Below, piece by piece: positions 5,945 to 63,738 of a DNA stretch of 64,000 nucleotides. Source of the DNA: Escherichia phage vB_EcoM_phAPEC6; sequence record MK817115.1; one strand, written 5' to 3'. The first letter of the stretch is position 1. Every line of letters begins with the position of its first letter. The translations under genes and the position numbers were made by a program. The notes under the pieces are model-generated. The model saw nothing but the letters and a program-made list of their open reading frames with translations. It searched no databases and had not been told where the DNA came from.

Positions 5945-5973
5945 ATTATACTGCTATTATTCAGTACTGTCAA
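5945..5973 (-). promoter_or_regulatory. sigma70-type promoter (TTGACA, 17 nt, TATAAT)
   Basis: Reverse complement reads TTGACA gtactgaataatagcag TATAAT GTTTATATCAAA. Confidence 0.6.
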
Positions 5974-6812: not shown

Positions 6813-6827
6813 GATAATTTCCTCTGA

Positions 6828-7616
6828 TTAAATGTTAGTAGTATAGTACTTGATTTCGTGTTGAATTGCAAGTTCTATTTGTTTATTGAAAAGAATTCCA
6901 AACTCTTTGATTGATTCACAATCGAATTCAATAGAAAAAGTATACTCTGGTACACGTACATTGTCAATACCCAAATACTCTTTTATGTAAATTTTAATGA
7001 GTTCACATAGTGCAGTACTAAGACATTGAATTTCAAAATGTTTTGCACCTTTGTCAAAATACTTGAATGCATCAATATCACCTACAATAAAACTATTCTT
7101 TAATGTAGTGAATAGGTTCTCAGGAAACACGGTAATAGGTGACATTGATTTAAGAATGTATGTATCTTTGGCATTCTTAATGTACTCAATGAAGCAGTAG
7201 TTGACGTCAGGCTCGATTGAACGATCCGCGTTATGATACCAGTGTTTAAACTCACTGTATTCAGCAAACTTATGCTGGCGTAATGCGTTACAATCTTCAC
7301 ACAGTGCAGTCATGTTCTCTTTATCATTACCGCCCTGAAGACAGTCCAGTACATTATGGTCTAACGTCATGCGTACAAGGCGTTTCCCTTTAAGTACATA
7401 AGGTCTGAATTTATAACGTTCTTTAGTACTGTGCTTGTGTAAAGTGAATACTACATTTGATTCACCACAACAATCACATTTAAAGCCATCACGTGACATT
7501 ACATGAATGAGTTTGCGTGTGTTCGGTCCAAACTCAGATTTAGTAATGTTATCCACAATTTCTGATGGTTGGTAATATTTTGAATTCCGTTGAATCAGTT
7601 CATCGATAGTGCTCAT
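6828..7616 (-). CDS. HNH endonuclease (262 aa)
   Basis: HNH-type motif: CDCCG ... TLDHN ... GGNDKENMTALCEDCN (Cys pair, His, Asn, Cys pair). Confidence 0.75.
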   Translation of the reverse strand: MSTIDELIQRNSKYYQPSEIVDNITKSEFGPNTRKLIHVMSRDGFKCDCCGESNVVFTLHKHSTKERYKFRPYVLKGKRLVRMTLDHNVLDCLQGGNDKENMTALCEDCNALRQHKFAEYSEFKHWYHNADRSIEPDVNYCFIEYIKNAKDTYILKSMSPITVFPENLFTTLKNSFIVGDIDAFKYFDKGAKHFEIQCLSTALCELIKIYIKEYLGIDNVRVPEYTFSIEFDCESIKEFGILFNKQIELAIQHEIKYYTTNI

Positions 7617-7847
7617 TTACATTATTCCTTCTATGCAACAACCAAGAATTACTTTTTTAACTTCAACAACTCGTACCAAATAGAATCCATTTGAAAAGTT
7701 AAAACTATACATTTGTACTAAGGCATCTGCTTCAGATTTCGCACGGATACATGATAGATAAATTTCACGTATATCACCATCTAACGATACTTGTTTCTCT
7801 GCATCGATGACAATAGAACGAATCTCAAAACGAACACCATAACTCAT
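7617..7847 (-). CDS. hypothetical small protein (76 aa)
   Basis: ORF in track. Confidence 0.45.
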   Translation of the reverse strand: MSYGVRFEIRSIVIDAEKQVSLDGDIREIYLSCIRAKSEADALVQMYSFNFSNGFYLVRVVEVKKVILGCCIEGIM

Positions 7848-8053
7848 TGAGTTTGTCCTACAATAAGCTTTGTGTTAGTATTACTATTGTAACACCACAT
7901 TTGTTCTTTATTAACTGTAATCCAAATATCTTTGTTTACTTGTTCGTATGTACTATCACGTACTGCTATGCATTGATTCATGGAATTCATTGGGGTTATT
8001 TGTATACCGGAATTAACAGAGAAAGCGACTACTAAAAAGATTACTGAATTCAT
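7844..8053 (-). CDS. hypothetical secreted small protein (69 aa)
   Basis: Signal-peptide-like N-terminus; promoter at 8118..8146. Confidence 0.45.
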   Translation of the reverse strand: MNSVIFLVVAFSVNSGIQITPMNSMNQCIAVRDSTYEQVNKDIWITVNKEQMWCYNSNTNTKLIVGQTQ

Positions 8054-8117
8054 TGGATATTCCTTAATGGTTAATCATCCATCTCTTCGAGATGTCTGTT
8101 CGCTTCTAATACTACGT

Positions 8118-8146
8118 ATTCTACGCGAATGATTAATAACTGTCAA
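8118..8146 (-). promoter_or_regulatory. sigma70-type promoter (TTGACA, 17 nt, TAGAAT)
   Basis: Reverse complement reads TTGACA gttattaatcattcgcg TAGAAT. Confidence 0.5.
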
Positions 8147-8670
8147 GGACTTTTAATATTGACGGGATTTGAGGAAGGGATTTTTCTTCCCCCCACAAGG
8201 AGGGAAATTTGACGCTGATGGTATCAGAGCTATTGCATTGAAGATTACTCATAACGAGTGCGAAAGCGGGTCATCCTGTTTCTCTCTACTTCAGTTTCAT
8301 ATGACGGTCTACACTTTTAAACATAGTGTATCTTCATTAAGTATCTATGCAATCAAATACTTAATGTGAGTACTCAAATTTTGGACGCAACTTTCCTGTA
8401 CAAAATTCGATAACTCTCCCTTAGATAATTCGTAAGGTGTTATCCTTATATGTCTATCAAGGAACCACCAGCTATCCTAACGTGGTTCTTTATACAGCCG
8501 CATTGCCGTGAGGGGTTCAAACTATGCCCACATCTAACGGGTTTCTTTTGCTGTTCGCACTGTCGGACTGCTCAACTGCCCTCTACGTTTTCGAGTGGAT
8601 CAGGTACATGAATATCATGCCAACAGAATTGTACAAGATAATTATATCACAAACTTTTACTTCATCCCAT

Positions 8671-8695
8671 AAAAAAAGGTTGGCATAAGCCAACC
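8671..8695 (-). terminator. rho-independent terminator of sigma-factor gene
   Basis: 7-bp GC-rich hairpin ggttggc/gccaacc followed on minus strand by a run of 7 T. Confidence 0.65.
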
Positions 8696-8703
8696 CTTGT
8701 TCT

Positions 8704-9669
8704 TTAGAAATCTTCGTATTCGTACCCTTTTGCAAGTACTAACTTCTTAAGCTTTTGCATAGCTTCACTGTACTTTCGGTGTATTGATGAACGGGATTTA
8801 ACATATTTTCCATTATCATCAACAAAACCATTATCAGCAATCTCACGAAGCGTTTCAGGTTCATATTCACCTAGACCATGAACACGCTGGATAATCTCAC
8901 GTTCTTTAGTACTCAATTCGTTAGTTAGTTCATTGATAGCATAACGTAAAGGTGCACGGATACTATCAACATTGAGGTTAAAATCAGAAGCAGGTGAATG
9001 AATAATGTCACCTAATGTACCATCTGTAACACCGTCTAATGGTGCATCCAGTGAAGTGTATTCGCTTTGAAATAATAAACAATTATTAACATGCTGAATC
9101 TCAATCCCAGTACCCTCTGAGATTATTTCAGGTGTTGGGCGAACACCATGTTTACGCATATATTCCTGGCAGAATCTTTTTACTTTGATCTTATGAACAC
9201 TCATATAACGTGGGAAGTGTACCATATAGTTAGCGTCAGAACTTTCGTTATAAACTGTCATGTAAATACTAGAAGAAGCATAGGTAATGAACTTCACATT
9301 CTTATTAAGATCAAAGGTTTTTAGTGCTCTCATGAACCCCTCAACACCATATGAAATCTTATCTTCAAATGGGATATAACAAGTACATTTACTTGCTACA
9401 TCAATAATAAGTCCATAATTGTAACGAACTAACAGTTCAGTGTTTTTCTTTACATTGATACCAGCTTGAATATCACGAATTAGATCTTCATTGGAAACAT
9501 TTGGTGGTCGCTTAAGTGTAATATTATATTTGAAACTGCTTTGTACTTTACCTTCATTTTCATCTTTATCTTCAACGAAATCTAAGGCTTCTAGTGTGTT
9601 GACTTCTTCATTAGCAAAACATTCATCCAGAACTTCTTCGGCAATTGTATTTAAATCAAGCTTTTTCAC
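8704..9669 (-). CDS. sigma-70 family RNA polymerase sigma factor (321 aa)
   Basis: Region 2-like segment (LIRDIQAGINVKKNTELLVRYNYGLIIDVASK) and region 4 HTH-like C-terminus (TLREIADNGFVDDNGKYVKSRSSIHRKYSEAMQKLKK). Confidence 0.75.
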   Translation of the reverse strand: MKKLDLNTIAEEVLDECFANEEVNTLEALDFVEDKDENEGKVQSSFKYNITLKRPPNVSNEDLIRDIQAGINVKKNTELLVRYNYGLIIDVASKCTCYIPFEDKISYGVEGFMRALKTFDLNKNVKFITYASSSIYMTVYNESSDANYMVHFPRYMSVHKIKVKRFCQEYMRKHGVRPTPEIISEGTGIEIQHVNNCLLFQSEYTSLDAPLDGVTDGTLGDIIHSPASDFNLNVDSIRAPLRYAINELTNELSTKEREIIQRVHGLGEYEPETLREIADNGFVDDNGKYVKSRSSIHRKYSEAMQKLKKLVLAKGYEYEDF

Positions 9670-9690: not shown

Positions 9691-10188
9691 TCAAAATCGA
9701 TATACATTAATATTATCATCTGTGAAGCAATCATGGTTATGCACATCCATGAAAGTACTAAACACTTTATCATATAAAGTTGTATGTTCTTCATGAATAG
9801 CAGCATCTAGCATGTATTCTCCACCACTTCCCATAAAGAAAGTGTAGTCTTCATGTAGATATTCAAGTTTTTTAATAAACTTTCCTTTAGTTAAAATCAT
9901 ATGAATAACATAATCTTTAGAAAGAAGCACACAATGGCAACTTAACTTTCTGTCAGGTATAACTGGTACTTTATTAATTAACCAATCCAGTACTTTATCA
10001 ATTTCACTTACTGACCCACTAGCACTGAATAAACGGTCATGTACATATAAAGTTTTTTGATTAACAACTCCATATTGATATTTTGGTCTTAGTGGGAAAA
10101 AACCAAATAAGTTTCGTGGTATAGTTGACGTAACTCTAGAATCGGTAATCAATAAATTTAATCGTTTATCAATATAAACAGTTGTCAT
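9691..10188 (-). CDS. HslV-like Ntn-hydrolase peptidase (proteasome beta-like), 165 aa
   Basis: N-terminal MTT (Thr nucleophile after Met removal), LYxxDxxF...G segment and GSGG motif aligned by eye to HslV. Confidence 0.6.
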   Translation of the reverse strand: MTTVYIDKRLNLLITDSRVTSTIPRNLFGFFPLRPKYQYGVVNQKTLYVHDRLFSASGSVSEIDKVLDWLINKVPVIPDRKLSCHCVLLSKDYVIHMILTKGKFIKKLEYLHEDYTFFMGSGGEYMLDAAIHEEHTTLYDKVFSTFMDVHNHDCFTDDNINVYRF

Positions 10189-10189
10189 A

Positions 10190-10609
10190 TTAAACCTTAT
10201 CTAAGAATTTATCGTATATATAAAATTCTTTATCGGTGAATACATTAATTCTAGTATCGAATCTTTGCATCGTGTTCATATACAATGAACTTTTTAAATA
10301 AAAATACAAAGCAACAAATTCTGATATATGCATATTCTTTTTATTGTTACATAAATTCTTTAGCATTTTGATGCTATCAAATTCTTCTTTATCAAATCTG
10401 TACTGGTAAAAATTGTATCTATTGGATCGGCACTCATAGATACGAAGTGCCATTATATCAATACATTCTTTAGATTTACAGTACTTATTCAATACGTCAT
10501 AATCACCCGTACATAATGCTACAAAGATTTTATGTGCAAGCGTAGCTTTGCCCTCAATCGTATAATAGCCAAAAAATTTAATGATTAAGTACTGAATGAA
10601 TGTAATCAT
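10190..10609 (-). CDS. hypothetical protein (139 aa)
   Basis: ORF in track. Confidence 0.55.
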   Translation of the reverse strand: MITFIQYLIIKFFGYYTIEGKATLAHKIFVALCTGDYDVLNKYCKSKECIDIMALRIYECRSNRYNFYQYRFDKEEFDSIKMLKNLCNNKKNMHISEFVALYFYLKSSLYMNTMQRFDTRINVFTDKEFYIYDKFLDKV

Positions 10610-10614
10610 TTGAT

Positions 10615-10875
10615 TTAGAATTTCTCCGAAATTACTAGAGTGTCATCATAATCTTCTGCAATCTCATGAAGAACTTTTAAGTTACTTTCACCAGAAACGC
10701 TTTGTACTTCGTTCAAAAGATAGTTTAGATCAACTTTAGTTACTTTTTCTGAATCAAATACACAGAAAGTCAATTCAGCGTTTGGACAGATCTTCTTCAG
10801 ATTATCAGCAACAACTTGTTTGAAGTTGAAAGATGGGGAAGCAACCAGGTTAACTGCAACGAGAATAGATTTCAT
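10615..10875 (-). CDS. hypothetical protein (86 aa)
   Basis: ORF in track. Confidence 0.5.
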   Translation of the reverse strand: MKSILVAVNLVASPSFNFKQVVADNLKKICPNAELTFCVFDSEKVTKVDLNYLLNEVQSVSGESNLKVLHEIAEDYDDTLVISEKF

Positions 10876-10949
10876 AATGTTTTCCTTTTTAGCTGATAAT
10901 TAAATTAGGAGCACATTGTACTCCATATTATTTGTTATGTAAAATACTT

Positions 10950-11201: not shown

Positions 11202-11260
11202 AAGTTCCTTACTCTAATTTGTTTTTAACAAAATAATTATATATAACATACTAAATTATG

Positions 11261-11686
11261 TCAAGTATTTTTAGTACCTTCTTCTGCCATTTTTGTGATA
11301 TACCAATTAAGTACTGATTTGTGTACCATAAAAAATGTGAATGCAAATATAGCAATAGCTGCTGATGTAACACTATTAGATAATGACCCAAGTTGGATGT
11401 TAGTACCTAAAATAACAATAAATGGATACAACACAATCAATCTACTGTAAGGTTCGTCTCCAGTATCACGGAGAAATCCAAGCCTTTCATGATCAGTATC
11501 CATAGTGACAATTGGACAGAACATAAGTGCAGACATAAGAGCAATACCAATTTGTGCTACATTGGAAATTGTAAACCACAAAGGATTTAAACCATATGAA
11601 ATATTATTTTCTGTACAGTAGTAACCAAACGAATTGAATGCACAAACTAAAAATACAAAAATACAAATCTTATTATAGCCTCTCAT
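11261..11686 (-). CDS. hypothetical membrane protein (141 aa)
   Basis: Several hydrophobic helices. Confidence 0.55.
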   Translation of the reverse strand: MRGYNKICIFVFLVCAFNSFGYYCTENNISYGLNPLWFTISNVAQIGIALMSALMFCPIVTMDTDHERLGFLRDTGDEPYSRLIVLYPFIVILGTNIQLGSLSNSVTSAAIAIFAFTFFMVHKSVLNWYITKMAEEGTKNT

Positions 11687-12597: not shown

Positions 12598-12626
12598 ATT
12601 ATAATACTAAGAATCTTTGTTGTCAA
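12598..12626 (-). promoter_or_regulatory. sigma70-type promoter (TTGACA, 17 nt, TATAAT)
   Basis: Reverse complement reads TTGACA acaaagattcttagtat TATAAT. Confidence 0.6.
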
Positions 12627-20939: not shown

Positions 20940-21029
<90 letters not shown>

Positions 21030-21041
21030 AGAAGTAAGATA

Positions 21042-21142
<101 letters not shown>

Positions 21143-21194
21143 GCCAAGAGTCGGCATAGGTGCAGCACTACAAAGTTCTTCAAGCTGCTTGGTA

Positions 21195-21226
<32 letters not shown>

Positions 21227-21227
21227 T

Positions 21228-21284
<57 letters not shown>

Positions 21285-21286
21285 TA

Positions 21287-21414
<128 letters not shown>

Positions 21415-21433
21415 GCATACTCGAAGTACCTCT

Positions 21434-21837
<404 letters not shown>

Positions 21838-21846
21838 TAATACCCG

Positions 21847-22248
21847 CTAGTAGTTTAAGTCTGCGGCGTTGAATACACCAAGTGAAGTCTTACCACGTAG
21901 TTTAGGTGAAAGGACATACTTTGTCAATTTCTTTTTACCGTACCAGCGATTGAATTCGTCTTCAGTGACATATGGGTTCTGGAAATCGTATTCGCGTTTC
22001 TTATGCAGTTCTTTAGCACGTTCTGCAATCTTGGTTCGTTGGTCTTCTGGAATGTCGAATGTATTGTTACGTTCACACCATTCGTGCTCTAATGCACCCT
22101 GAAGAAACTGTTCGGTTTCTTTGACTAGAGTGATTTTAGTCAAGCCTTTTTCGATGTTCATATAATCATCGACGTATCCATTCCAAATAACAATCTCTGG
22201 ATTGCCGTCAATTTCTTGAAGCATTTTGATCAAGTCATTCTTTTTCAT
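21847..22248 (-). CDS. hypothetical protein (133 aa)
   Basis: ORF; N-terminus MKKNDLIKMLQ paralogous to 21619..21834. Confidence 0.55.
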   Translation of the reverse strand: MKKNDLIKMLQEIDGNPEIVIWNGYVDDYMNIEKGLTKITLVKETEQFLQGALEHEWCERNNTFDIPEDQRTKIAERAKELHKKREYDFQNPYVTEDEFNRWYGKKKLTKYVLSPKLRGKTSLGVFNAADLNY

Positions 22249-22256
22249 TTAAATTC

Positions 22257-22514
<258 letters not shown>

Positions 22515-22535
22515 TTATACCTCTCATTGTTTATG

Positions 22536-22607
<72 letters not shown>

Positions 22608-22611
22608 TAAT

Positions 22612-23219
<608 letters not shown>

Positions 23220-23270
23220 ATAAACCTCACTATACGTAACTTACACCATATACGTCTGATTGTGGAATTC

Positions 23271-23295
23271 ATTATATCAGTACTGAACTATTTAG

Positions 23296-23299
<4 letters not shown>
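23271..23299 (-). promoter_or_regulatory. sigma70-type promoter (TTGACT, 17 nt, TATAAT)
   Basis: Reverse complement reads TTGACT aaatagttcagtactga TATAAT, with TG one base upstream of the -10 hexamer (extended -10). Confidence 0.65.
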
Positions 23300-23709
<410 letters not shown>

Positions 23710-23718
23710 CTTTTTTTT

Positions 23719-23880
<162 letters not shown>

Positions 23881-23884
<4 letters not shown>

Positions 23885-24045
23885 AATCGTACCAGTAGTT
23901 CAATTAAGTACATTTCATATGCTGGATCGTTGATAAGTTTATCATACAGATGTGGCTCTGAAATGAATTCCCAATGATACTTTAGCCATCTACCGATACC
24001 CGAATATCTAAAATTAATGTCATTCATCCATTCTTCATGTGTCAT
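23881..24045 (-). CDS. MTHEEWM mini-protein family, copy 2 (54 aa)
   Basis: MTHEEWMNDINFRYSGIGRWLKYHWEF...; near-identical to copy 3; ATGA overlap with neighbours. Confidence 0.5.
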
Positions 24046-24206
24046 AATCGTACCATTATTTCAATAAAGAACCACGGATACACTTCATGATTCATAAGTT
24101 TATCGTATTCTGCTGGGTCTGATATGATTTCCCAATGATACTTTAGCCAACTACCGATACCCGAATATCTAAAATTAATGTCATTCATCCATTCTTCATG
24201 CGTCAT
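23885..24206. repeat. tandem direct duplication (two ~160-bp units, near-identical over their 3' ~85 bp)
   Basis: 23960..24045 and 24121..24206 are almost identical at DNA level (ttcccaatgatactttagcca...cattcttcatgtgtcat). Confidence 0.7.
24042..24206 (-). CDS. MTHEEWM mini-protein family, copy 3 (54 aa)
   Basis: MTHEEWMNDINFRYSGIGSWLKYHWEI...; first gene after tRNA-Arg. Confidence 0.5.
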   Translation of the reverse strand: MTHEEWMNDINFRYSGIGSWLKYHWEIISDPAEYDKLMNHEVYPWFFIEIMVRL

Positions 24207-24229
24207 GGTTTTTAACCTTTAATTAAAAT

Positions 24230-24306
24230 TGGCCGAGGTAGAGGGACTTGAACCCCCAACCTAGAGATTAGAATTCTCTTGCACTATCCAATTGTGCTAT
24301 ACCCCG
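24230..24306 (-). tRNA. tRNA-Arg (anticodon UCU)
   Basis: Cloverleaf: D-arm GCAC/GTGC, anticodon stem AGAGA/TCTCT, loop ATTCTAA, T-loop TTCAAGT, encoded CCA. Confidence 0.8.
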
Positions 24307-24310
24307 TATT

Positions 24311-24426
<116 letters not shown>

Positions 24427-24459
24427 ATGTTATGTCCCATTATATAATGAATTAATGAT

Positions 24460-24786
24460 TTATGCAAGTGCTTTAGATACACCGACACCAATAATTCCAG
24501 TGATATCGATATGGATATTGGCAAGTTGATTACTATCATATGGGTTTGTTTCTGTAATAACCAATGTTGTATCATTGACTAAAACCACAGTACCTTTTAC
24601 ACGATAACCATGTAGTAGTACTTGAACCTCATCTTCAGGTTTTAATGATTGAATAACTTCAAATAAAGTTGTTTCCATTTTTTGTATTCCTTGTTTAGTT
24701 TTGATTATTTGACTTTCTAAATGCCAGTTCGCATATAAACCAGGGTTTTCTGGTATCCAAAACATATGACCTGAAAAGATTTTCAT
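24460..24786 (-). CDS. hypothetical protein (108 aa)
   Basis: ORF in track. Confidence 0.5.
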   Translation of the reverse strand: MKIFSGHMFWIPENPGLYANWHLESQIIKTKQGIQKMETTLFEVIQSLKPEDEVQVLLHGYRVKGTVVLVNDTTLVITETNPYDSNQLANIHIDITGIIGVGVSKALA

Positions 24787-24877
24787 CTCTTAATATATCA
24801 TAATGTACCTGACGAATGCCATTCCCAAAGCAGTCATGTTCTTTATGCTGTTTGGACATCCATTCTTCGTGTGTCAT
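24695..24877 (-). CDS. MTHEEWM mini-protein family, copy 4 (60 aa)
   Basis: Track ORF 24695..24895 trimmed to the conserved MTHEEWM start. Confidence 0.5.
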   Translation of the reverse strand: MTHEEWMSKQHKEHDCFGNGIRQVHYDILRDENLFRSYVLDTRKPWFICELAFRKSNNQN

Positions 24878-24878
24878 T

Positions 24879-25214
<336 letters not shown>

Positions 25215-28789: not shown

Positions 28790-29149
28790 TTAATTATTAG
28801 AAAGAACAATTTTTGAAACTGGTAAATCTGTATTATTTACACGTTCTTCATTATATCCATTCTGTACAAGAATGTCAATAACTTTAGACTTATCAATTGT
28901 AAATGATTCTAACATATCATATCGGTAATAACCAATAGTCTGACTGAACTCATATTTTCCTGGCTGTTGACGACAACACGTATTTGTTTCAGCCATAATC
29001 TTATTGATTAGGTAATATGTTTCAGTACTATCAATATTTGGAATATAGATCTTATCATCAAAATGAATTACTTCATGTTTATTCATAGAGTGATTCAATC
29101 TCCGCTTTAAGAATGGAAATGATCTCTTTCTGAAGGCCAGTAATTTCAC
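28790..29149 (-). CDS. hypothetical protein (119 aa)
   Basis: ORF; 5' end overlaps next gene so start may be internal. Confidence 0.5.
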   Translation of the reverse strand: MKLLAFRKRSFPFLKRRLNHSMNKHEVIHFDDKIYIPNIDSTETYYLINKIMAETNTCCRQQPGKYEFSQTIGYYRYDMLESFTIDKSKVIDILVQNGYNEERVNNTDLPVSKIVLSNN

Positions 29150-31224: not shown

Positions 31225-31424
31225 TTCGTATATCCTCGTTTAATTAATATAGGAGTATTATACATACTCCATTTTCATGTGTCAAGCTTTATAATACGGA
31301 AGACTTTTTACTAAAGATTCAGACGTATTATTTTTTACCCATGTACTACCGTTGTCATTAGATACGTATCCAGTACCATTAATAAATTTACGCATAATAC
31401 CAGTAAAAATATTAGTATACACCA

Positions 31425-45295: not shown

Positions 45296-45374
45296 AAGTT
45301 AGTTCCTTATCTGTACATTAAAAAGAGTGCGTTTTCAATAAGATTATATTAAAAACGCACTCATATGTCAACTA

Positions 45375-46511
45375 TTACTTGTTAGCTTTTTCGGCAATTT
45401 CACGAAGAGTGTCTTCCAGTTCATAGGAAAGTTGTGCAATTTCCTGTTTAGCACGTTCACGTTCCAATTTACCTTTTTTCTCTTCTTCAATAACTGCTTC
45501 AATACTGTCAATCATCGTTTTATGTACATTACGCAAGGTTTTAATATCCACAATACCACGGTTGTTTGCCTTTGCTGCATCCAACATATTTGCTGCAACC
45601 ATTTTAGAGTTAGTTTCCAAAAGACGGTTTGTCTCATTATCAATTAGATTGCCTAGTTCATTATCCTTACGTTGACGCTCGGAAATCAACTGTTCAGCCA
45701 ATTGAGACTTCCATGCTGGAATAACAACGGATTTTAAATCTTCAAACTTAGAAACAGTGTTCAAGTTTACTTTTTTCATACTCATCAAGCGTGGACCACT
45801 TAGTTCGCACATCATGATAAGACGACGAATCTTATCTTCTTGTTTAGAAAGTGCTTCACAAATCATCTTTTGCTCTTGAATAGCAAAAGAGTCTACATTT
45901 TTGTCTGCTTGCATTTCTACTAATAATGCATCTTGTGTTTTAGTCACTTCTTCTAAACCAACTAATGTATCACGCAATTCAAACAAATATTCTTTGTTTT
46001 CATTATATGCTTTATCAAGCCATTCACATTCTCCGTGCTGGCGATTAATACCAGTTTGAAGAGTTTTCATAATTTCGTCAATTTGCTCTTTACTGTTTTT
46101 GTACTGATCACCTACTTTCTGTTGAGCATTAACAAAGAATTTCTTAATACGACCAACAATTGATTTATCTTCTTGAAGACTGTCAATATCAACTGCACGA
46201 GTCAACGTAAGAATTGTGGTGATTGATTTACCAAACTCGGTATTGTCATCCGTTACATTAACTTTAGACATAATTTCATCAGCCAAACGCCCAACAGCAG
46301 CACCAGCAGTTGTACCAACAGTATTGATGTTTTGAACTGTTAGAGACATAGTATTTCCCTTAACATCTTTCAGTACTGGTAGTGATTTTGTAGTTTGGTT
46401 AAAAATATCACTTGCATCAATTGTATGACCTTTAGTCGCAGTTTTAGTAGTACGTTTTGCTGATTTAGCTGCGGTGGATGCTTTTTTAGGATTGATTTCT
46501 TTCTCGGACAT
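45375..46511 (-). CDS. hypothetical coiled-coil protein with Lys-rich N-terminus (378 aa)
   Basis: Long ORF; basic N-terminal tail then heptad-like segments; no motif recognised. Confidence 0.65.
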   Translation of the reverse strand: MSEKEINPKKASTAAKSAKRTTKTATKGHTIDASDIFNQTTKSLPVLKDVKGNTMSLTVQNINTVGTTAGAAVGRLADEIMSKVNVTDDNTEFGKSITTILTLTRAVDIDSLQEDKSIVGRIKKFFVNAQQKVGDQYKNSKEQIDEIMKTLQTGINRQHGECEWLDKAYNENKEYLFELRDTLVGLEEVTKTQDALLVEMQADKNVDSFAIQEQKMICEALSKQEDKIRRLIMMCELSGPRLMSMKKVNLNTVSKFEDLKSVVIPAWKSQLAEQLISERQRKDNELGNLIDNETNRLLETNSKMVAANMLDAAKANNRGIVDIKTLRNVHKTMIDSIEAVIEEEKKGKLERERAKQEIAQLSYELEDTLREIAEKANK

Positions 46512-49975: not shown

Positions 49976-50620
49976 TTATTTGTAATATTTACCTAGTACT
50001 GAATAAATTTTCAGTCTAAGTTCTGTCCAGTTTTCGATATATTCAAAACCACTATGATTCTTATACATAGTATTATGAGAACATCCCATCATAACTGATG
50101 GAATACCAAGACCCATAGCAGTTTCAATATTATTGATATAATCATCAATCATTAGTTTTACATCATATCGTGTTTGTAAATCCTCTAATGCTTCTTTCTT
50201 TGATTCATTCATTTCTATGATAATAATCTCATCAAAGCAGTTTTCACCAAATTCACGCATTAGATTTACATTTCGTAAAACTTCACCATAGCCTTTTTTA
50301 CCACATTTTGTGAGTACTACGAATTTTTCTTTATGAAAACGATCACGTAGCTCTTGTACAATATCAACTGTATTTGGTTCGACTGGCTTTAACAACCCAA
50401 ACAAATATGATTGTTGGTTGAACTGTTCAAGAATCTTTTTAACTTCAGGTTGAGGAACACCCAACCAGTCTGATAAATCATATTCTAATGGGTATGGTGT
50501 TGATGGTGTGATATTATAAGTTTGTTTTACAAACTCAGAAAGCATACCCATATGGTCCAATAGAACTTCATCACAATCAAAAACTATACAACGTGGTTTC
50601 ATTACATGTTCCCCGAACAA
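49976..50620 (-). CDS. HAD-superfamily hydrolase, 5'(3')-deoxyribonucleotidase-like (214 aa)
   Basis: N-terminal CIVFDCDEVLLD (D-x-D HAD motif I). Confidence 0.6.
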   Translation of the reverse strand: MFGEHVMKPRCIVFDCDEVLLDHMGMLSEFVKQTYNITPSTPYPLEYDLSDWLGVPQPEVKKILEQFNQQSYLFGLLKPVEPNTVDIVQELRDRFHKEKFVVLTKCGKKGYGEVLRNVNLMREFGENCFDEIIIIEMNESKKEALEDLQTRYDVKLMIDDYINNIETAMGLGIPSVMMGCSHNTMYKNHSGFEYIENWTELRLKIYSVLGKYYK

Positions 50621-51591
50621 ATTAGGTCAATCTCACACAGTAAAGCACTAAGATTCATTTCACGGTCTGATACTGTTGCTTGCTTAACAACTGCATCACG
50701 AATTTTAACTTTAATCTTCATCAGTGTGATTTCATCAGTACTGAACATTTCAGCATTTCTGTACAAGTAAGAGAAAAATGCATCCATCTCATCATCAGGG
50801 ATATTTTGTACAATTTGTTCACGCATTTGGCGAATGTTGCCTGCCTTTAATGCTTCAACAATTGCAGTACGATACCCTGCTGAATTTTCAATACTATCTT
50901 CAAGTTTTACTAGCTTACCATCAACAACTGAACTTTGCAATACGTTTAGTGTTTTACGGAAATCAGGATAGGAAGCATTGATGTACTTTTGAACTTGTTC
51001 AACACTATCATCACTACTCAAATCAACACCTTCTGCTAGAAGAATATTATAAATTCGAGTCATGAATTGTTCCATATCATGCTTTTCGATTGTAATAACT
51101 TGAACACGAGAAATGATAGGTTTTTGAATTTTATGTGGTTCGTTACTTGTTAAAATAAAGCGAGCATTTTCATGATAGTCTTCCATTACACGTTTCAAAC
51201 TACCTTGTGCTTTGTGGTTCATCTGCTCCATTTCTTCAAGAACAAAAATACGATATCTACCAAAACATGATAGCTTTGCTGCGGCATCGATTTTGTCACG
51301 AACAGCATCAATGCCTTCATCGGACATGTTAAGCGTGGTCACATCACTTGGATCAAGGTGTCCATTTTGAACTAGTCCATTAATTAGTACTTTGATCGCA
51401 GATGTTTTACCAGTTCCTGCTGGGCCAAAAAACCCAATATGTGGAATGTCACCAGTCTTAATCCATTCTTCCATTTTCTGGCGTAGTGCATCGTTTTTTG
51501 ATACATAATCTTCCATTGATTGTGGGCGATATTTTTCAGTCCATAGTGTGGTCATTTGTATTTCCTTATGTGTACGTGTTATAGAATCCAA
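50602..51591 (-). CDS. 44: clamp-loader AAA+ ATPase, gp44-like (329 aa)
   Basis: WTEKYRP box, Walker A GPAGTGKTS, Walker B FVLEE, sensor SRVQVI; aligns by eye with T4 gp44. Confidence 0.8.
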   Translation of the reverse strand: MDSITRTHKEIQMTTLWTEKYRPQSMEDYVSKNDALRQKMEEWIKTGDIPHIGFFGPAGTGKTSAIKVLINGLVQNGHLDPSDVTTLNMSDEGIDAVRDKIDAAAKLSCFGRYRIFVLEEMEQMNHKAQGSLKRVMEDYHENARFILTSNEPHKIQKPIISRVQVITIEKHDMEQFMTRIYNILLAEGVDLSSDDSVEQVQKYINASYPDFRKTLNVLQSSVVDGKLVKLEDSIENSAGYRTAIVEALKAGNIRQMREQIVQNIPDDEMDAFFSYLYRNAEMFSTDEITLMKIKVKIRDAVVKQATVSDREMNLSALLCEIDLICSGNM

Positions 51592-53438: not shown

Positions 53439-55859
53439 TTAACCTCCTATGTTATTGTTTTGCAATGTAATCAAAAATGTATCTGAAACATAATTCACTG
53501 ATTCATGCGAAAAGTATCCGAATTCAACCGATGTGATTTCGAACTCTACACCTACCATTGTACCATGTTCATTGTTCTGAAGTAAAGTGTTGAAAAATGC
53601 TTCACCTTTCCCTGGTTGACAATATGCAACTGGAATGATAGGCATGAATTTTTTCTGTATACCATCTTCAATGTATGGGTGATTCATAAATCTTGGAACC
53701 GTATCAAGCATTTCATCACTGATACTTGGTATCGCATCAACGTATAGACCACGATTTTGTAAATCGGTTGGGTCTTTTACTAAGTTGGTTGTGTCTTCAC
53801 CAATAGCCTGAAAAATATTTTGTCGTAAACCAAATAATTCACCAAGCTGACCGTTGTCGATTTGAGTATATTGACGTGGATTTTTGGATACAGATACTAA
53901 AGATCCTTCAGGTAAAACCTCTCTATATAATAGATCATATTGTAAGTTACCTTGATTGTCAAGTGCTGATATTATTTTATAATTACCCATTACCATTTTA
54001 AATTTTCCATTTGGAATAGTAGTTCCATTTGGGTTAATTATACTATTTCTCAATACTTTCTTGATATCAGAAAGGTTAGTATATGGATACGTTTGACTTA
54101 GGAAGTTTTCTTTCAATAACATCTTCGGTATTTTCTGAAGACCATATCTATTGTCAGATTGTCGGAAAAATAGTTGATTAGTGAATGATGAAGTACTGAT
54201 ACATTTAAACCATTCTCTCTCAAATGCAACCGAAGGTAATACATGTGCACTCAAATAATTCTGTCCGAATCCTCTTACAATCTTAAGGTTAAATATTTTT
54301 CTTGCTTCACCACCTTCAGTACTAAATGCTTTAACATAAAACGATAATTTAATATCATCATTTTCACTAAAATCAATACTTTTGGCATATGCAGTTCCTA
54401 CAAGATATCCATCTGGTGTCAAATCTATCCCATACTTTCTAATGTCATCACCACCATCTAAAACATACGAAACTTGATTAGAGCTATCAGTTTCAATTTT
54501 AGGATATATACTGTCTCCAAAATATTCACCAACATGTATGGTTCCTAAATCACTATCAGTAATAAAGTTTATATTATTACCTTCTTCTGCGTTTATCAAA
54601 ACCCTGAACATTTTTTGCATACCAATGATATTATCACCAAGAGTAGAGTCATAATATCCTAAATCAATCCAATCACTACTATCATAAACGGGCTTAATTG
54701 TTCCATTATCGTATTCACCACTAATTACGTATGGATACACAACATTATCTTTTAATTGATATAAATGATTGGGTAGTGGTTTTTCTGAAATAGAATATAT
54801 AGTATCTATGTCTTCAGGACAAACCCACATTTGATATGCTTTATATCGTTGATTGATAGCAAACCTTTCACTTTCTTCGGTGTATGTACTTAATATATCA
54901 ACAATCTCAACTTTAAAATATGCATCACAAGCATCTGAGTCATATAAAAATGTTTGCAATAATTGCCCATTTGGGTTGAACACCATTCCAGTGTCAATTA
55001 AATTACCATTTCTATTTTGAATATTAACTTTTACTTCTTTGTTTATACCAGAAATAGGCCATGTTGATTGTGCTGGCTTGAATACTGCGAAATCATTCGT
55101 AATATGTTTATCTGGAACTTCAGAAATATCCATGTCAATCAAACGATATGCTGGAAAAAAGACACGAGGTGTAATATCAGTAGTCATGTCAGTACCCAAA
55201 ATGAAAGGTCGTCTTCTTCCAAATCCTTGAACGAACAATGTACTGTTGGAGCCATACTCAACATCACCAATACAATAAAGCTTTTTGTCATCACCAATCT
55301 CAACTCCAGGTGTAACCCAAACTTCTTGACTATCATATGTTATTGATGTATCAGTTAATCCTAGAACACCACTTGGTGAAATATTTCCAAAATACATAAC
55401 ATTTACTGCTTGTAAATAAAAATTTATAATTTCTGTATTATTATAGGTTCCATCATTTTTACAATGAATTTTTATAAAATAAACATCTTCACTATTAGTA
55501 CTTGCAGATAAGTTAAATTCATTTTTGCTGATTTTACACTTATGCTTACCATTTACTAATTTATTACCAGTTGTACCATCTGAAATAGGAACAAAAGTAT
55601 TTTCGTCATTACCAACATAAAAAGTATAATGTGGTTCTGGATCAAATACAGCACCTGAACTATCCAAGCATTGTATGTTAAGAATCATTTCTAAGTATTC
55701 ATCTTCATTTAATACATAGCTATCATCCGTTGTGCTTTCTTTATTGATACTCAAACGCACAAGAATGTCTTGTCCTTCTTGTATATATCGAGCATCGGCT
55801 TTTATATCCCATCGTGGGGTAAAAGTTGTCATTATAATTCTCCATAGCCAAGCTGCCAT
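53439..55859 (-). CDS. large hypothetical protein (806 aa), beta-rich
   Basis: Longest ORF in window; Asn/Gly/Thr/Tyr-rich; no catalytic motif seen. Confidence 0.8.
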   Translation of the reverse strand: MAAWLWRIIMTTFTPRWDIKADARYIQEGQDILVRLSINKESTTDDSYVLNEDEYLEMILNIQCLDSSGAVFDPEPHYTFYVGNDENTFVPISDGTTGNKLVNGKHKCKISKNEFNLSASTNSEDVYFIKIHCKNDGTYNNTEIINFYLQAVNVMYFGNISPSGVLGLTDTSITYDSQEVWVTPGVEIGDDKKLYCIGDVEYGSNSTLFVQGFGRRRPFILGTDMTTDITPRVFFPAYRLIDMDISEVPDKHITNDFAVFKPAQSTWPISGINKEVKVNIQNRNGNLIDTGMVFNPNGQLLQTFLYDSDACDAYFKVEIVDILSTYTEESERFAINQRYKAYQMWVCPEDIDTIYSISEKPLPNHLYQLKDNVVYPYVISGEYDNGTIKPVYDSSDWIDLGYYDSTLGDNIIGMQKMFRVLINAEEGNNINFITDSDLGTIHVGEYFGDSIYPKIETDSSNQVSYVLDGGDDIRKYGIDLTPDGYLVGTAYAKSIDFSENDDIKLSFYVKAFSTEGGEARKIFNLKIVRGFGQNYLSAHVLPSVAFEREWFKCISTSSFTNQLFFRQSDNRYGLQKIPKMLLKENFLSQTYPYTNLSDIKKVLRNSIINPNGTTIPNGKFKMVMGNYKIISALDNQGNLQYDLLYREVLPEGSLVSVSKNPRQYTQIDNGQLGELFGLRQNIFQAIGEDTTNLVKDPTDLQNRGLYVDAIPSISDEMLDTVPRFMNHPYIEDGIQKKFMPIIPVAYCQPGKGEAFFNTLLQNNEHGTMVGVEFEITSVEFGYFSHESVNYVSDTFLITLQNNNIGG

Positions 55860-55919: not shown

Positions 55920-57332
55920 TCAATTGTCTGATTTAGGAGTAAAGTCAATCTTTCTTAGTTCTTTTAGTTCAGATTTATAAATGTCCCAAATTAAGTCATG
56001 ATTAGATAACAGTTCATTGTACTTATCCATCAAATCAAGATTATCTTGAATATCTTGTAGTACTGATTGATAATTATCTTGCGTCCAGCGATATGAAGGG
56101 AAGTTTACAATGCTTTGAATATTCTCTTCCGTTGCTTCAATTTCGGTATTTAACGATTTAACGAATTCAACCATTTCAGCACGGTTTGCAAATCCTTTTA
56201 CCTTAGCAATCATATCATTATCGAAACATTCTTTAATTAGAATTTTATAACGAACTTCAGCAGCACAATCATCAAGTTTCTTTTCATAACGCTTGATGTA
56301 ATATTTGAAACGGAAATCAACGAAGTCTTTAATCAAATCCATCGTAGTATCGTAAACTTTCACTTTGCCATTTTCACCTAGAACAGTTAAATGTTGAGTC
56401 ATTTTTTTGTTAATGCCAAAATACTCAATAACATCCATCTCTGTCCATTTAGCTGACGTTCCACGTGGAAGTTTAATGGTAATATCAATTACATCAGTAC
56501 TATCATTGTCATAATCACGAATCTCACCATCATCACTCATTTTGATTAGTTTTTCGATGAATTTCTCAATACTGTAATTAGGTGGTAAGCCTGTTACTTT
56601 AACAGTGCTTGCATCAATAACCTCAGCTTTACCATAGAATTCATACTTATTTTCATCAAGCTTAGTCACAACATCACTTGCACCACATGAAACATAATAT
56701 GGGGTCATTTCTTTTAGTGGTTTTTTATCAATAGCACGAATGCAATTATCAATAATATCTTCAATTTTATGTGGTAGAATTGTACTCTTATAACCAACTG
56801 ACATACTATCATTACCAAACAATGATAATGGAATAATAGGCAAGAAATGAACAGGTTCATATGTTGTCCCGTCATAGTTCTCTTTCATTGGTATAATATC
56901 AGCATCACGCAAAACAAGCATCTCAGTACTCTTATTCTTTTTAACATAAGTGTAACGAGCAGATGCTGGTGTACTGTTTACTTGTGTACCAAAACCACCA
57001 CGTTTTCCAATAAGAGGATAGTTGTTAGCTACTGGAGATGCTAGATTTTGAAGTGTTCCTGATGCTGACGTGTCCCCATGAAGATAGATACCATCACTAA
57101 TCATTTTTCCAGCACATGATACTGTTTTAATTTCCCCACTAATTTTAGATAATGTGAAGATTGCTTTACGTTGTGAACTCTTTAGACCATCAATTCCAGG
57201 AATAGCACGGTCTAGTGTATACATCGAATATTCTAGTGATGTTGTATTCACATAATCAGAACTGTTATAATCTAGTAGAGTTAGTGTTTGGTTATCGATA
57301 TTATGATTTTCTGTTTTTTTACTTTTAGCCAT
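55920..57332 (-). CDS. 52: DNA topoisomerase II medium subunit, gp52-like (GyrA-like)
   Basis: YSMYTLDRAIPGIDGLKSSQRKAIF aligns with GyrA/gp52 N-terminal signature; 470 aa. Confidence 0.8.
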   Translation of the reverse strand: MAKSKKTENHNIDNQTLTLLDYNSSDYVNTTSLEYSMYTLDRAIPGIDGLKSSQRKAIFTLSKISGEIKTVSCAGKMISDGIYLHGDTSASGTLQNLASPVANNYPLIGKRGGFGTQVNSTPASARYTYVKKNKSTEMLVLRDADIIPMKENYDGTTYEPVHFLPIIPLSLFGNDSMSVGYKSTILPHKIEDIIDNCIRAIDKKPLKEMTPYYVSCGASDVVTKLDENKYEFYGKAEVIDASTVKVTGLPPNYSIEKFIEKLIKMSDDGEIRDYDNDSTDVIDITIKLPRGTSAKWTEMDVIEYFGINKKMTQHLTVLGENGKVKVYDTTMDLIKDFVDFRFKYYIKRYEKKLDDCAAEVRYKILIKECFDNDMIAKVKGFANRAEMVEFVKSLNTEIEATEENIQSIVNFPSYRWTQDNYQSVLQDIQDNLDLMDKYNELLSNHDLIWDIYKSELKELRKIDFTPKSDN

Positions 57333-63474: not shown

Positions 63475-63543
63475 GTAATAAAAGCTCCAATATGATTTTA
63501 ATGTTTTGTTCGATAGTAATTATAGGATAGAACATTAGTTCTG

Positions 63544-63738
63544 TCAAGCACTATCATTGTGTTTTTTAATTGCTTCACAGATTGCTTGAACTTGAACAAG
63601 ATAAGTTTTTGCAAATTCTGCTTGGGTTCGCACACGTGGGTTTGGTGCGTCTTTGATCATAAGTTCTAGGTCATAAACTACCTTATCAAAAACTCCCTTG
63701 TCTTCAATAATACGATCATAAAATGTTTTGTCAGTCAT
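63544..63738 (-). CDS. hypothetical small protein (64 aa)
   Basis: ORF in track. Confidence 0.45.
   Translation of the reverse strand: MTDKTFYDRIIEDKGVFDKVVYDLELMIKDAPNPRVRTQAEFAKTYLVQVQAICEAIKKHNDSA

What the first reader, a model, noticed from the sequence alone, without database searches (positions are those of the whole stretch)
9691..10188. HslV-like Ntn-hydrolase peptidase encoded by the phage
The protein begins MTT (Thr nucleophile expected after Met removal), has a LYxxDxxF...G segment at the position where HslV has RLYNDKVIAGFAGG, and carries the GSGG motif near the C-terminus. A phage proteasome-like peptidase next to the sigma-factor gene suggests controlled proteolysis of host or phage proteins. 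Whether it is catalytically competent, and whether it needs host HslU, cannot be judged from the sequence.
Basis: partly seen in the sequence, partly recalled or inferred. Interest (0 to 1): 0.65.

Follow-up and report, generated by a model that had tools for sequence, protein, structure and literature searches.

The report
Compact proteasome-like peptidase of a jumbo phage
This jumbo E. coli phage gene encodes a miniature proteasome-type (N-terminal threonine) peptidase with every catalytic residue intact; it belongs to the phage-borne "PPH" branch of the proteasome family rather than being a true HslV, and nobody has yet tested what such enzymes do.

Summary
Window 9691-10188 (minus strand) is a 165-aa ORF starting MTT, with GSGG at residues 120-123, directly upstream of a sigma-factor gene. 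The window is a 121Q/PBECO4-type jumbo coliphage, and the gene equals 121Q gp166, "hypothetical" in nearly all records.

It is not an HslV orthologue. Curated HslV and Pfam models reject it, and it lacks helix H2. Its closest relatives by profile comparison (E=1e-11, against 2e-5 for HslV) are 145-152-aa phage proteins that fit the "PPH" family of Fuchs et al. 2021. It differs from them by a 13-residue hairpin insertion just before the catalytic Lys.

The gene appears to be an early gene co-transcribed with the sigma factor. Linkage to the sigma gene decays in distant homologs. The phage has no HslU, but elsewhere it encodes a second HslV-family paralog, a ClpP and a ClpA-like unfoldase. Substrates are unknown. 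This is a divergent member of a known, uncharacterised kind, of moderate interest.

The parts
9691..10188 (-). Gene for the 165-aa proteasome-like (T1-type) N-terminal-threonine peptidase (121Q gp166 homolog; phrog_24804)
10183..10185 (-). Codon of Thr2, the predicted nucleophile Thr1 after removal of the initiator Met
   Evidence: M-T-T is invariant in 23/23 homologs. It aligns with Thr1 of HslV and of the PPH-like family.
10141..10143 (-). Codon of Asp16 (Asp17 equivalent); Thr20 (Thr21 equivalent) follows at 10129-10131
   Evidence: D16 and T20 are 23/23. TDSRVT aligns with HslV GDGQ(A/V)T and with PPH-like CDSRxT.
10078..10116 (-). 13-residue insertion (about residues 25-37, RNLFGFFPLRPKY) that lengthens the beta-hairpin just before the catalytic Lys; the feature that sets this family apart
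   Evidence: Appears as a gap in the PPH-like and HslV profiles. The model has long strands 18-27 and 31-41.
10054..10056 (-). Codon of Lys45 (Lys33 equivalent)
   Evidence: K in 22/23, R in 1. It aligns with invariant K32 of the PPH-like family and with K33 of archaeal beta in global mode. It immediately precedes strand 46-49.
10015..10017 (-). Codon of Gly58 (oxyanion-hole Gly47 equivalent), at the end of strand 52-58 before the single helix 60-72
   Evidence: G in 23/23. It aligns with G45 of the PPH-like family and G47 of archaeal beta.
9823..9831 (-). Codons of Gly120-Ser121-Gly122 (Gly128-Ser129-Gly130 equivalent)
   Evidence: G 23/23; S 21/23 (plus one T and one C); G 23/23. It aligns with the GSG of HslV, archaeal beta and the PPH-like family.
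9721..9732 (-). Codons of Asp153-x-x-Thr156 (Asp166-x-x-Ser169 equivalent)
   Evidence: D153 is 23/23 and position 156 is T or S in 23/23. It aligns with RD166SAS169GG of archaeal beta and with D128-x-x-S/T of the PPH-like family.
8704..9669 (-). Phage sigma-70-family factor gene, 21 nt downstream in the same predicted operon (GTG start preceded by AGGAG)
   Evidence: Pfam Sigma70 r2/r3/r4 and phrog_351. Junction sequence.
8675..8698 (-). Intrinsic-terminator-like hairpin (10-bp stem followed by a T run) that ends the operon after the sigma gene
   Evidence: No terminator-like site lies between the peptidase and sigma genes.
10190..10609 (-). Upstream 139-aa ORF of unknown function; its stop codon is 1 nt from the peptidase ATG (translational coupling likely)
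   Evidence: phrog_37211, unknown function.
10615..10875 (-). Upstream 86-aa ORF of unknown function in the same predicted operon
11236..11264 (-). Perfect-consensus sigma-70 promoter (TTGACA-17-TATAAT), the likely early promoter feeding the operon; a weaker 10/12 site lies at 10915-10943
   Evidence: There are 7 exact matches in the window, all on the minus strand, against 0.04 expected.

Best explanation
The gene encodes a catalytically competent N-terminal-threonine peptidase of the proteasome family. It is a divergent, jumbo-phage-specific branch of the compact phage-borne 'PPH' clade: group I, no propeptide, no helix H2.

Proposed mechanism. (1) Host RNA polymerase with sigma-70 transcribes the gene early from consensus promoters, in one operon with the phage sigma factor (inferred from sequence signals). 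(2) Host methionine aminopeptidase removes Met1 and exposes Thr2 as the new N-terminus, as happens for E. coli HslV (inferred from established knowledge; every family member starts MTT). (3) The Thr O-gamma attacks peptide bonds. Lys45 and Asp16 handle proton transfer, Gly58 forms the oxyanion hole, and Ser121, Asp153 and Thr156 hold the active site (residue equivalences shown here; chemistry inferred from the proteasome and HslV). (4) The protein probably assembles into a homo-oligomer and acts inside the infected cell on host or phage proteins not yet identified (inferred). The 13-residue hairpin insertion next to the catalytic Lys probably shapes substrate access. Canonical HslU docking is unlikely.

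For: Sequence: phrog_1040 'peptidase HslV family' is hit by 14/23 members, best 6e-14. hhalign against the PPH-like profile gives probability 97.4%, E=1e-11, full length; against HslV, E=1.9e-5.

Catalytic set conserved in 21-23 of 23 sequences down to 18% identity.

The absence of H2 and of a propeptide matches the published description of PPH (PMC8665760).

Operon signals.

Non-structural role: a separate T4-type prohead protease exists (PMC11895373; phAPEC6 gp227c), and no protein of 19.06 kDa is in the phAPEC6 virion proteome.
Against: No enzymology exists for this family or for PPH. Pfam Proteasome and the NCBIfam HslV models do not hit the protein, so homology rests on profile-profile and structural comparison. 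hhalign against HslV places Lys45 two residues away from Lys33; the Lys33 equivalence rests on the PPH-like and archaeal-beta alignments and on secondary-structure position. Oligomeric state, partners and substrates are untested. Early expression is inferred from promoter-like motifs only.
Confidence: 0.7

Rival explanations
1. It is a functional HslV: a dodecameric peptidase that recruits the host HslU unfoldase to degrade host or phage proteins in an ATP-dependent way.
Against: No hit to the NCBIfam HslV equivalogs, whose cut-offs are 137 and 158 bits. About 17 residues are missing across H1-H2, so only one short helix (60-72) remains on the face that in HslV contacts HslU (the role of the apical helices is from my own knowledge of HslUV structures). 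The protein is about a million-fold closer in hhalign E-value to PPH-like proteins than to HslV. Fuchs et al. found no AAA+ partner for these families. No HslU gene exists in the genome of a 98-99% identical phage.
Confidence: 0.07
2. It is a highly specific processing enzyme rather than a bulk protease. For example, it may cleave (or, like connectase, ligate) one defined target such as the co-transcribed sigma factor or a host transcription factor, in the way that spoIIGA sits upstream of pro-sigma-E.
Against: The linkage is lost in homologs at 24% identity or below. Munch has an annotated terminator between the two genes. These genomes are broadly collinear, so adjacency is weak evidence. 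The insertion is a beta-hairpin, not the two-helix lid, and helix H1 is present, unlike in connectase. There is no evidence that the sigma factor is processed.
Confidence: 0.12
3. It works as one subunit of a hetero-oligomer with the phage's second HslV-family paralog (197 aa, phrog_1040), and/or is fed by the phage's own ClpA-like unfoldase.
For: A 98-99% identical genome encodes a second T1-type protein (phrog_1040, E=4e-24), a ClpP (Pfam 4e-41) and a ClpA-type double-AAA+ protein with an SIGM motif. Another jumbo phage also carries two 'HslV' genes and no HslU (PMC7823757).
Against: The three genes lie 135-220 kb from the target and are not co-located with it. The ClpA-like protein has a cognate ClpP. 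The two paralogs are only remotely similar (hhalign E=0.033). No interaction data exist.
Confidence: 0.08
4. It is a catalytically dead, proteasome-fold protein with a structural or binding role, like the proteasome alpha subunits.
For: No activity has ever been shown. Curated family models do not recognise it.
Confidence: 0.04

Closest known systems
[quoted passage not shown] Members occur in Vibrio, Pseudomonas, Aeromonas, Xanthomonas OP1 and Shewanella phages and are annotated 'proteasome subunit beta', 'nucleophile aminohydrolase' or 'peptidase HslV family'.
   Same: Phage-borne, and starts MTT with no propeptide. It is compact and has one helix where HslV and beta subunits have H1+H2. It shares the motifs (T/C)DSRxT, K, G, GSG and D-x-x-(S/T). 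hhalign gives probability 97.4%, E=1e-11 over the full length.
   Different: It is 165 aa rather than about 146 aa, because of a 13-residue hairpin insertion before the catalytic Lys and a longer H3-H4 region. HMM searches with its own family profile do not retrieve PPH-like proteins at E below 1e-3. It has a separate PHROG (24804, against 1040). It is restricted to RaK2/121Q-like jumbo phages. The C-terminal motif is D-x-(Y/F)-(T/S)-D-D-N rather than D-x-x-S-G-G-K.
HslV (ClpQ), the peptidase of the bacterial HslUV protease
   Different: No H2. It fails the HslV equivalog HMMs. There is no hslU in the phage. It has a hairpin insertion. hhalign to HslV is only E=1.9e-5.
20S proteasome beta subunits (MEROPS T1A; Pfam PF00227)
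   Different: No propeptide, no H2 and no H5. It is 40-60 residues shorter, falls below the Pfam threshold, and has no alpha-type partner.
Connectase (MJ0548), a proteasome-fold protein ligase
   Different: Connectase lacks both H1 and H2 and has a two-helix lid. The phage protein keeps H1, and its insertion is a beta-hairpin.
The phage's own second HslV-family protein (197 aa, phrog_1040; outside the window) and 'HslV' genes noted in other jumbo phages (pSal-SNUABM-04 ORF1/ORF116, PMC7823757)
   Same: Phage-encoded, with MT- start and GSG motifs. No HslU partner is encoded in those phages (pSal-SNUABM-04).
   Different: Only remotely related to the target (hhalign E=0.033). It is longer and closer to HslV (E=9e-5).

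Membership tests
Proteasome-like Ntn hydrolases (T1-type fold: HslV, 20S, Anbu, BPH, connectase, PPH...) | Alpha-beta-beta-alpha Ntn sandwich with the proteasome strand order | tested here: met
Proteasome-like Ntn hydrolases (T1-type fold: HslV, 20S, Anbu, BPH, connectase, PPH...) | N-terminal Thr/Ser nucleophile plus Asp17, Lys33 and the Gly47 oxyanion hole | tested here: met
   T2 23/23, D16 23/23, K45 22/23 and G58 23/23, aligned to the equivalents in the PPH-like, HslV and archaeal beta profiles. The 3D geometry itself was not measured because no coordinates were accessible.
Proteasome-like Ntn hydrolases (T1-type fold: HslV, 20S, Anbu, BPH, connectase, PPH...) | Passes the curated Pfam PF00227 threshold | tested here: not met
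   The target has no hit. Three of 23 relatives hit below threshold, best E=1.3e-3 at 18.9 bits against a 22.4-bit cut-off. Many of the homolog families in the 2021 survey are similarly remote.
HslV (ClpQ) | Scores above the NCBIfam equivalog cut-offs (NF003964, TIGR03692) | tested here: not met
   No hit at E of 1 or below.
HslV (ClpQ) | Two apical helices H1+H2 forming the HslU-facing surface | tested here: not met
   There is a single 13-residue helix (60-72). About 17 residues are deleted relative to the HslV profile.
HslV (ClpQ) | Encoded with, or dependent on, an HslU ATPase | tested here: not met
   There is no HslU homolog in the window or in the 352-kb genome of a 98-99% identical phage. 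The best hit is a ClpA-like gene at E=3.6e-4. Dependence on host HslU is not testable here.
HslV (ClpQ) | Double hexameric ring (dodecamer) | not testable with these tools
   No multimer prediction or experiment was available.
PPH (Fuchs et al. 2021) | Lacks helix H2; has no propeptide and no C-terminal extension | tested here: met
   The H1-to-S5 stretch aligns to the PPH-like family with only a 2-residue gap. The definition is taken from PMC8665760.
PPH (Fuchs et al. 2021) | Compact subunit of about 140 residues without insertions | tested here: not met
   The protein is 165 aa and carries a 13-residue insertion before the Lys33 equivalent.
PPH (Fuchs et al. 2021) | Encoded by tailed phages (or prophage regions) of Proteobacteria | tested here: met
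   It is found only in 121Q/RaK2-type jumbo phages and phage-like contigs.
PPH (Fuchs et al. 2021) | Clusters with the PPH reference WP_042125023.1 rather than with RPC (WP_140207863) or DPH (WP_074989469.1) | not testable with these tools
   The reference sequences could not be fetched, and the accession look-up did not show them. The A3 family used as the PPH proxy matches PPH by description only. Under the paper's description RPC has a C-terminal extension, which this protein lacks. DPH remains undetermined.
Connectase | No H1/H2 pair; a two-helix lid inserted between S3 and S4 | tested here: not met
   H1 is present and the insertion is a beta-hairpin (definition).
Phage prohead (head-maturation) protease | Located in the head-morphogenesis module and/or found in proheads or virions; herpesvirus/T4 gp21-like or ClpP-like fold | tested here: not met
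   The fold is different. The gene lies in an early-type operon with the sigma factor. Relatives have a separate prohead protease. No protein of 19.06 kDa is in the phAPEC6 virion list.

The most novel reading that the evidence does not exclude
The peptidase is a dedicated early-infection regulator. In this reading it is a minimal proteasome that needs no unfoldase, and its hairpin insertion gives it specificity for one or a few targets. Candidates are the co-transcribed phage sigma factor (removal of its acidic N-terminal region of about 78 residues) or a host transcription or defence protein. Proteolysis would then time the switch from host sigma-70-driven early transcription to phage sigma-driven transcription.
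Probability: 0.1. Interest if true: 0.75.

Novelty: new member of a known kind. Interest (0 to 1): 0.4.

Why it matters
Phage-encoded proteasome homologs were recognised bioinformatically in 2021, but I found no experimental function for any of them. This gene gives a tractable E. coli-phage example with four useful properties:
- It has a complete catalytic set.
- It is predicted to be expressed early, in one operon with the phage sigma factor.
- It lacks the HslU-docking helix.
- It coexists with a second HslV-family paralog and a phage ClpA/ClpP pair.

Working out its substrates would show why phages carry miniature proteasomes (host takeover, counter-defence, or timing of gene expression). 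It would also show whether a proteasome-type ring can work without an unfoldase. On the practical side, the gene is annotated "hypothetical protein" in nearly all of about 50 phage records and could be re-annotated as a proteasome-like Ntn peptidase (PPH-related), not as HslV.

Tried and rejected
- **Sequence searches against PDB.** Single-sequence and family-profile searches found no proteasome or HslV chains. The only hits (5jqk at E=0.013, and a TCR chain) are spurious local matches.
- **First AF2 model.** The model from the shallow 16-sequence alignment was mediocre (pLDDT 82.7; Foldseek TM 0.46-0.57). I replaced it with a model from the 23-sequence alignment.
- **Canonical HslV in the phage collection.** The hits are host DNA or unverified fragments, not phage genes.
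- **Head-maturation protease.** Rejected on fold, genomic location, the existence of a separate prohead protease, and absence from the virion proteome.
- **A phage-encoded HslU partner.** None exists. Phage HslU-like genes belong mostly to 220-275-kb Erwinia/Salmonella jumbo phages, and local tblastn on a complete near-identical genome found only a ClpA-like gene.
- **Obligate linkage to the sigma factor.** Rejected, because homologs at 24% identity or below have other neighbours.
- **Assignment to the 2021 clusters by accession (PPH, RPC or DPH).** This failed because the reference sequences were not retrievable.
- **Broader profile search with the 23-sequence alignment.** It added only family members plus one twilight hit, P0080 at E=0.04. 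That hit proved to be the useful bridge to the PPH-like family.
- **hhalign of the family against the second paralog.** Not significant (E=0.033).

Full report
**What is in the sequence.** Window 9691-10188 holds a 165-aa ORF on the minus strand. It starts at the first possible start codon, ATG 10188-10186. The protein reads MTTVYIDKR..., contains L47-Y48-x-x-D51-x-x-F54...G58, and has G120-S-G-G123. The stop codon of the upstream 139-aa ORF (10190-10609) is 1 nt from this ATG. A sigma-70-family factor gene (8704-9669; Pfam Sigma70 r2/r3/r4) starts 21 nt downstream, behind an AGGAG ribosome-binding site.

**Which genome, and how widespread.** The region is 98-99.6% identical to Escherichia jumbo phages of the 121Q/PBECO4/slurp01/G17/Sharanji type (Asteriusvirus, about 350 kb). 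The gene equals 121Q gp166.
- Nearly every record calls it "hypothetical protein". Only fEgEco12 labels its 75%-identical homolog "HslV".
- Homologs occur in RaK2/K64-1 (46% identity), Hallingskeid (43%) and Munch/SE_PL (30%).
- An exhaustive HMM search of 1.84 billion representative proteins found only 17 clusters.
- A second search with a more diverse profile added very little. The family is small and phage-restricted.

**Sequence-level classification.**
- Pfam, NCBIfam and PDB-sequence searches give nothing for the protein itself.
- PHROGs places it in phrog_24804 (unknown function), with a weak hit to phrog_1040 "peptidase HslV family" (1.3e-6).
- Across 23 family members, 14 hit phrog_1040 (best 6e-14) and 3 weakly hit Pfam Proteasome (best 1.3e-3).

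- Anbu 12.0, BPH 11.6, connectase 11.4.
- Alpha subunits: about 8-10.
- Other Ntn hydrolases: 7.6 or below.

BFVD returns 18 viral proteasome-like proteins at E of 1e-3 or below. These include "Proteasome subunit beta" of Caulobacter phage CcrBL9 and proteins of the jumbo phages Noxifer, RisingSun and PhiPA3. The proteasome-type fold is not in doubt.

**Active site.** In the 23-sequence alignment (identity to the query down to 18%), the following positions are conserved:

| Residue | Conservation | Proteasome/HslV equivalent |
|---|---|---|
| M1-T2-T3 | 23/23 | Thr1 (after Met removal) |
| D16 | 23/23 | Asp17 |
| T20 | 23/23 | Thr21 |
| K45 | 22/23 | Lys33 |
| G58 | 23/23 | Gly47 |
| G120 / S121 / G122 | 23/23, 21/23, 23/23 | Gly128-Ser129-Gly130 |
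| D153 | 23/23 | Asp166 |
| Position 156 (T or S) | 23/23 | Ser169 |

Profile-profile alignments support these equivalences. One caveat: hhalign against HslV puts K45 two residues away from Lys33. The PPH-like alignment and the global archaeal-beta alignment both put K45 on the catalytic Lys. In the model, K45 immediately precedes strand 46-49, which is followed by a tight turn, strand 52-58 ending in G58, and then helix 60-72. That is the Lys33/S3/S4/Gly47/H1 arrangement of proteasome subunits.

**It is not an HslV orthologue but a PPH-type protein.** Fuchs, Alva and Lupas (2021, PMC8665760) described 22 new proteasome-homolog families. [quoted passage not shown] PPH is about 140 residues long, belongs to group I with HslV and BPH, and has no propeptide. 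PPH and RPC uniquely lack helix H2.

The phage protein has exactly one short helix where HslV and beta subunits have H1+H2. About 17 residues are missing relative to HslV.

A twilight hit of the family profile, P0080 (146 aa), belongs to a large family of 145-152-aa proteins on phage-sized contigs. Members also occur in named Vibrio, Pseudomonas, Aeromonas, Xanthomonas (OP1) and Shewanella phages. They are annotated "proteasome subunit beta", "nucleophile aminohydrolase" or "peptidase HslV family". That fits the published description of PPH.

hhalign of the two family profiles gives probability 97.4% and E=1e-11 over 138 columns, with all catalytic positions aligned and only a 2-residue gap in the H1-to-S5 stretch. 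The same profile scores E=1.9e-5 against HslV and 0.012 against archaeal beta.

The main differences from the PPH-like family are:
- a 13-residue insertion (about residues 25-37), which extends the hairpin just before the catalytic Lys;
- a longer H3-H4 segment.

Because I could not fetch the reference accessions of the 2021 paper, I cannot say whether this family was already binned there as peripheral PPH or as DPH.

**Partners.**
- The window contains no unfoldase. Among the ten larger ORFs scanned, its only AAA+ protein is the clamp loader.
- I assembled the complete 352-kb genome of a 98-99% identical phage (OR844650.1) and searched it locally. It has no HslU.
- That genome does encode three relevant proteins far from the target: a ClpA-type double-AAA+ protein with SIGM at the position of ClpA's IGL loop, a ClpP (Pfam 4e-41), and a second 197-aa HslV-family protein (phrog_1040, 4e-24).
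- HslU-like genes in phages belong mostly to the 220-275-kb Erwinia/Salmonella jumbo phages.
- Fuchs et al. likewise found no AAA+ partner for the new families.

**Expression context.** On the minus strand there are perfect-consensus sigma-70 promoters at 12626-12598 and 11264-11236, and a 10/12 match at 10943-10915. No terminator lies between the peptidase and sigma genes, and a strong terminator sits at 8698-8675, right after the sigma gene. The exact TTGACA-N17-TATAAT consensus occurs 7 times in the window, always on the minus strand, against 0.04 expected. This suggests early transcription by host RNA polymerase and co-transcription with the phage sigma factor. It is an inference from motifs only.

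The peptidase-then-sigma gene order behaves as follows in relatives:
- It is kept in RaK2 and Munch.
- In P0020 (37% identity) a 50-aa ORF lies between the two genes.
- It is looser in Hallingskeid and in P0024 (28% identity), where the sigma gene is about 2 kb away.
- It is absent in homologs at 24% identity or below.

The linkage is therefore mostly backbone collinearity.

A morphogenetic role is unlikely. Relatives have a separate T4-type prohead protease, and no protein of 19.06 kDa appears among the 62 phAPEC6 virion proteins.

**Most likely mechanism.** Host methionine aminopeptidase exposes Thr2, as in E. coli HslV (established knowledge). The free N-terminal Thr acts as nucleophile with Lys45 and Asp16, and Gly58 forms the oxyanion hole. 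Ser121, Asp153 and Thr156 stabilise the site. The enzyme probably forms a homo-oligomer and cleaves host or phage proteins early in infection. The hairpin insertion beside the active-site Lys probably modulates substrate access. The residue conservation and fold are shown here. The chemistry, assembly and substrates are inferred. Rivals are, in order of my estimate: a specific processing enzyme for the sigma factor or another single target; a hetero-complex with the paralog or the ClpA-like ATPase; a canonical HslU-dependent HslV; and an inactive structural protein.

**Novelty and interest.** Proteasome homologs in phages are known from bioinformatics, and the PHROG label "peptidase HslV family" is already used in annotation. 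This is therefore a divergent member of a known but functionally uncharacterised kind. It is worth re-annotating, and it offers a reasonable experimental entry point in an E. coli phage. It is not a categorically new system.

Noticed in passing
window 5945-5973, 11236-11264, 12598-12626, 28850-28878, 31257-31285, 45343-45371, 63519-63547 (all minus strand): Seven exact copies of the full sigma-70 consensus promoter TTGACA-N17-TATAAT, all on the minus strand, against 0.04 expected by chance. They probably mark early transcription units read by host RNA polymerase.
   Followed up: partly
outside the window: OR844650.1 (98-99% identical phage), 234177-234770, minus strand (loci L022): A second proteasome/HslV-family gene: 197 aa from MTCIIAHTNG..., phrog_1040 E=4e-24, with weak hits to the NCBIfam HslV models at 19-20 bits. 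This phage type therefore carries two distinct T1-type paralogs.
   Followed up: partly
outside the window: OR844650.1 155203-157512 (minus strand) and 238986-239681 (minus strand): The phage encodes its own ClpA-type double-AAA+ unfoldase (AAA, AAA_lid_9, AAA_2 and ClpB_D2-small domains; 'SIGM' where ClpA has its ClpP-docking IGL loop). It also encodes a ClpP homolog (Pfam CLP_protease 4e-41, 36% identical to E. coli ClpP; also matches the PHROG head-maturation protease family).
   Followed up: partly
window 8054-8703, minus strand: A stretch of about 650 nt with no convincing ORF, directly downstream of the sigma-gene terminator. It is also gene-free in the Sharanji and fEgEco12 annotations. 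It folds better than shuffled controls (z=-3.7) but matches no Rfam family. It could be a regulatory region or an ncRNA.
   Followed up: partly
window 6818-7874 (includes ORF 6828-7616, minus strand) and about 21842-22242: Two segments with no counterpart in the otherwise 98%-identical ECO103 4-12-1 genome. The first carries a 262-aa ORF with CxxC...HNH-like motifs. Its positional counterpart in fEgEco12 is annotated HNH endonuclease, although Pfam gave no hit. It is probably a mobile homing-endonuclease insertion.
   Followed up: partly
window 20950-25192, minus strand: A cluster of seven tRNA genes: Thr-TGT, Asn-GTT, Met-CAT, Ser-ACT, Arg-TCT, Ser-TGA and Gly-TCC. Three of them are unusually long at 90-92 nt. 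Rfam confirms six of the seven.
   Followed up: no
window 45375-46511, 50602-51591, 55920-57332, 57383-59347 (all minus strand): Other identifiable genes in the window: a TelA-like toxic-anion-resistance protein, a gp44-type clamp-loader AAA+ subunit, and the two subunits of a type II topoisomerase. Several large ORFs (for example 53439-55859, 806 aa) have no Pfam match.
   Followed up: no
phage collection records OR845448.1, OR851086.1, OR844988.1, OR849164.1, OR846616.1, MT835528.1 and others: Canonical bacterial hslV-hslU genes appear in records labelled as phages. These are mostly UNVERIFIED short contigs or bacterial WGS entries, so they look like host DNA contamination rather than phage-encoded HslVU.
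   Followed up: partly
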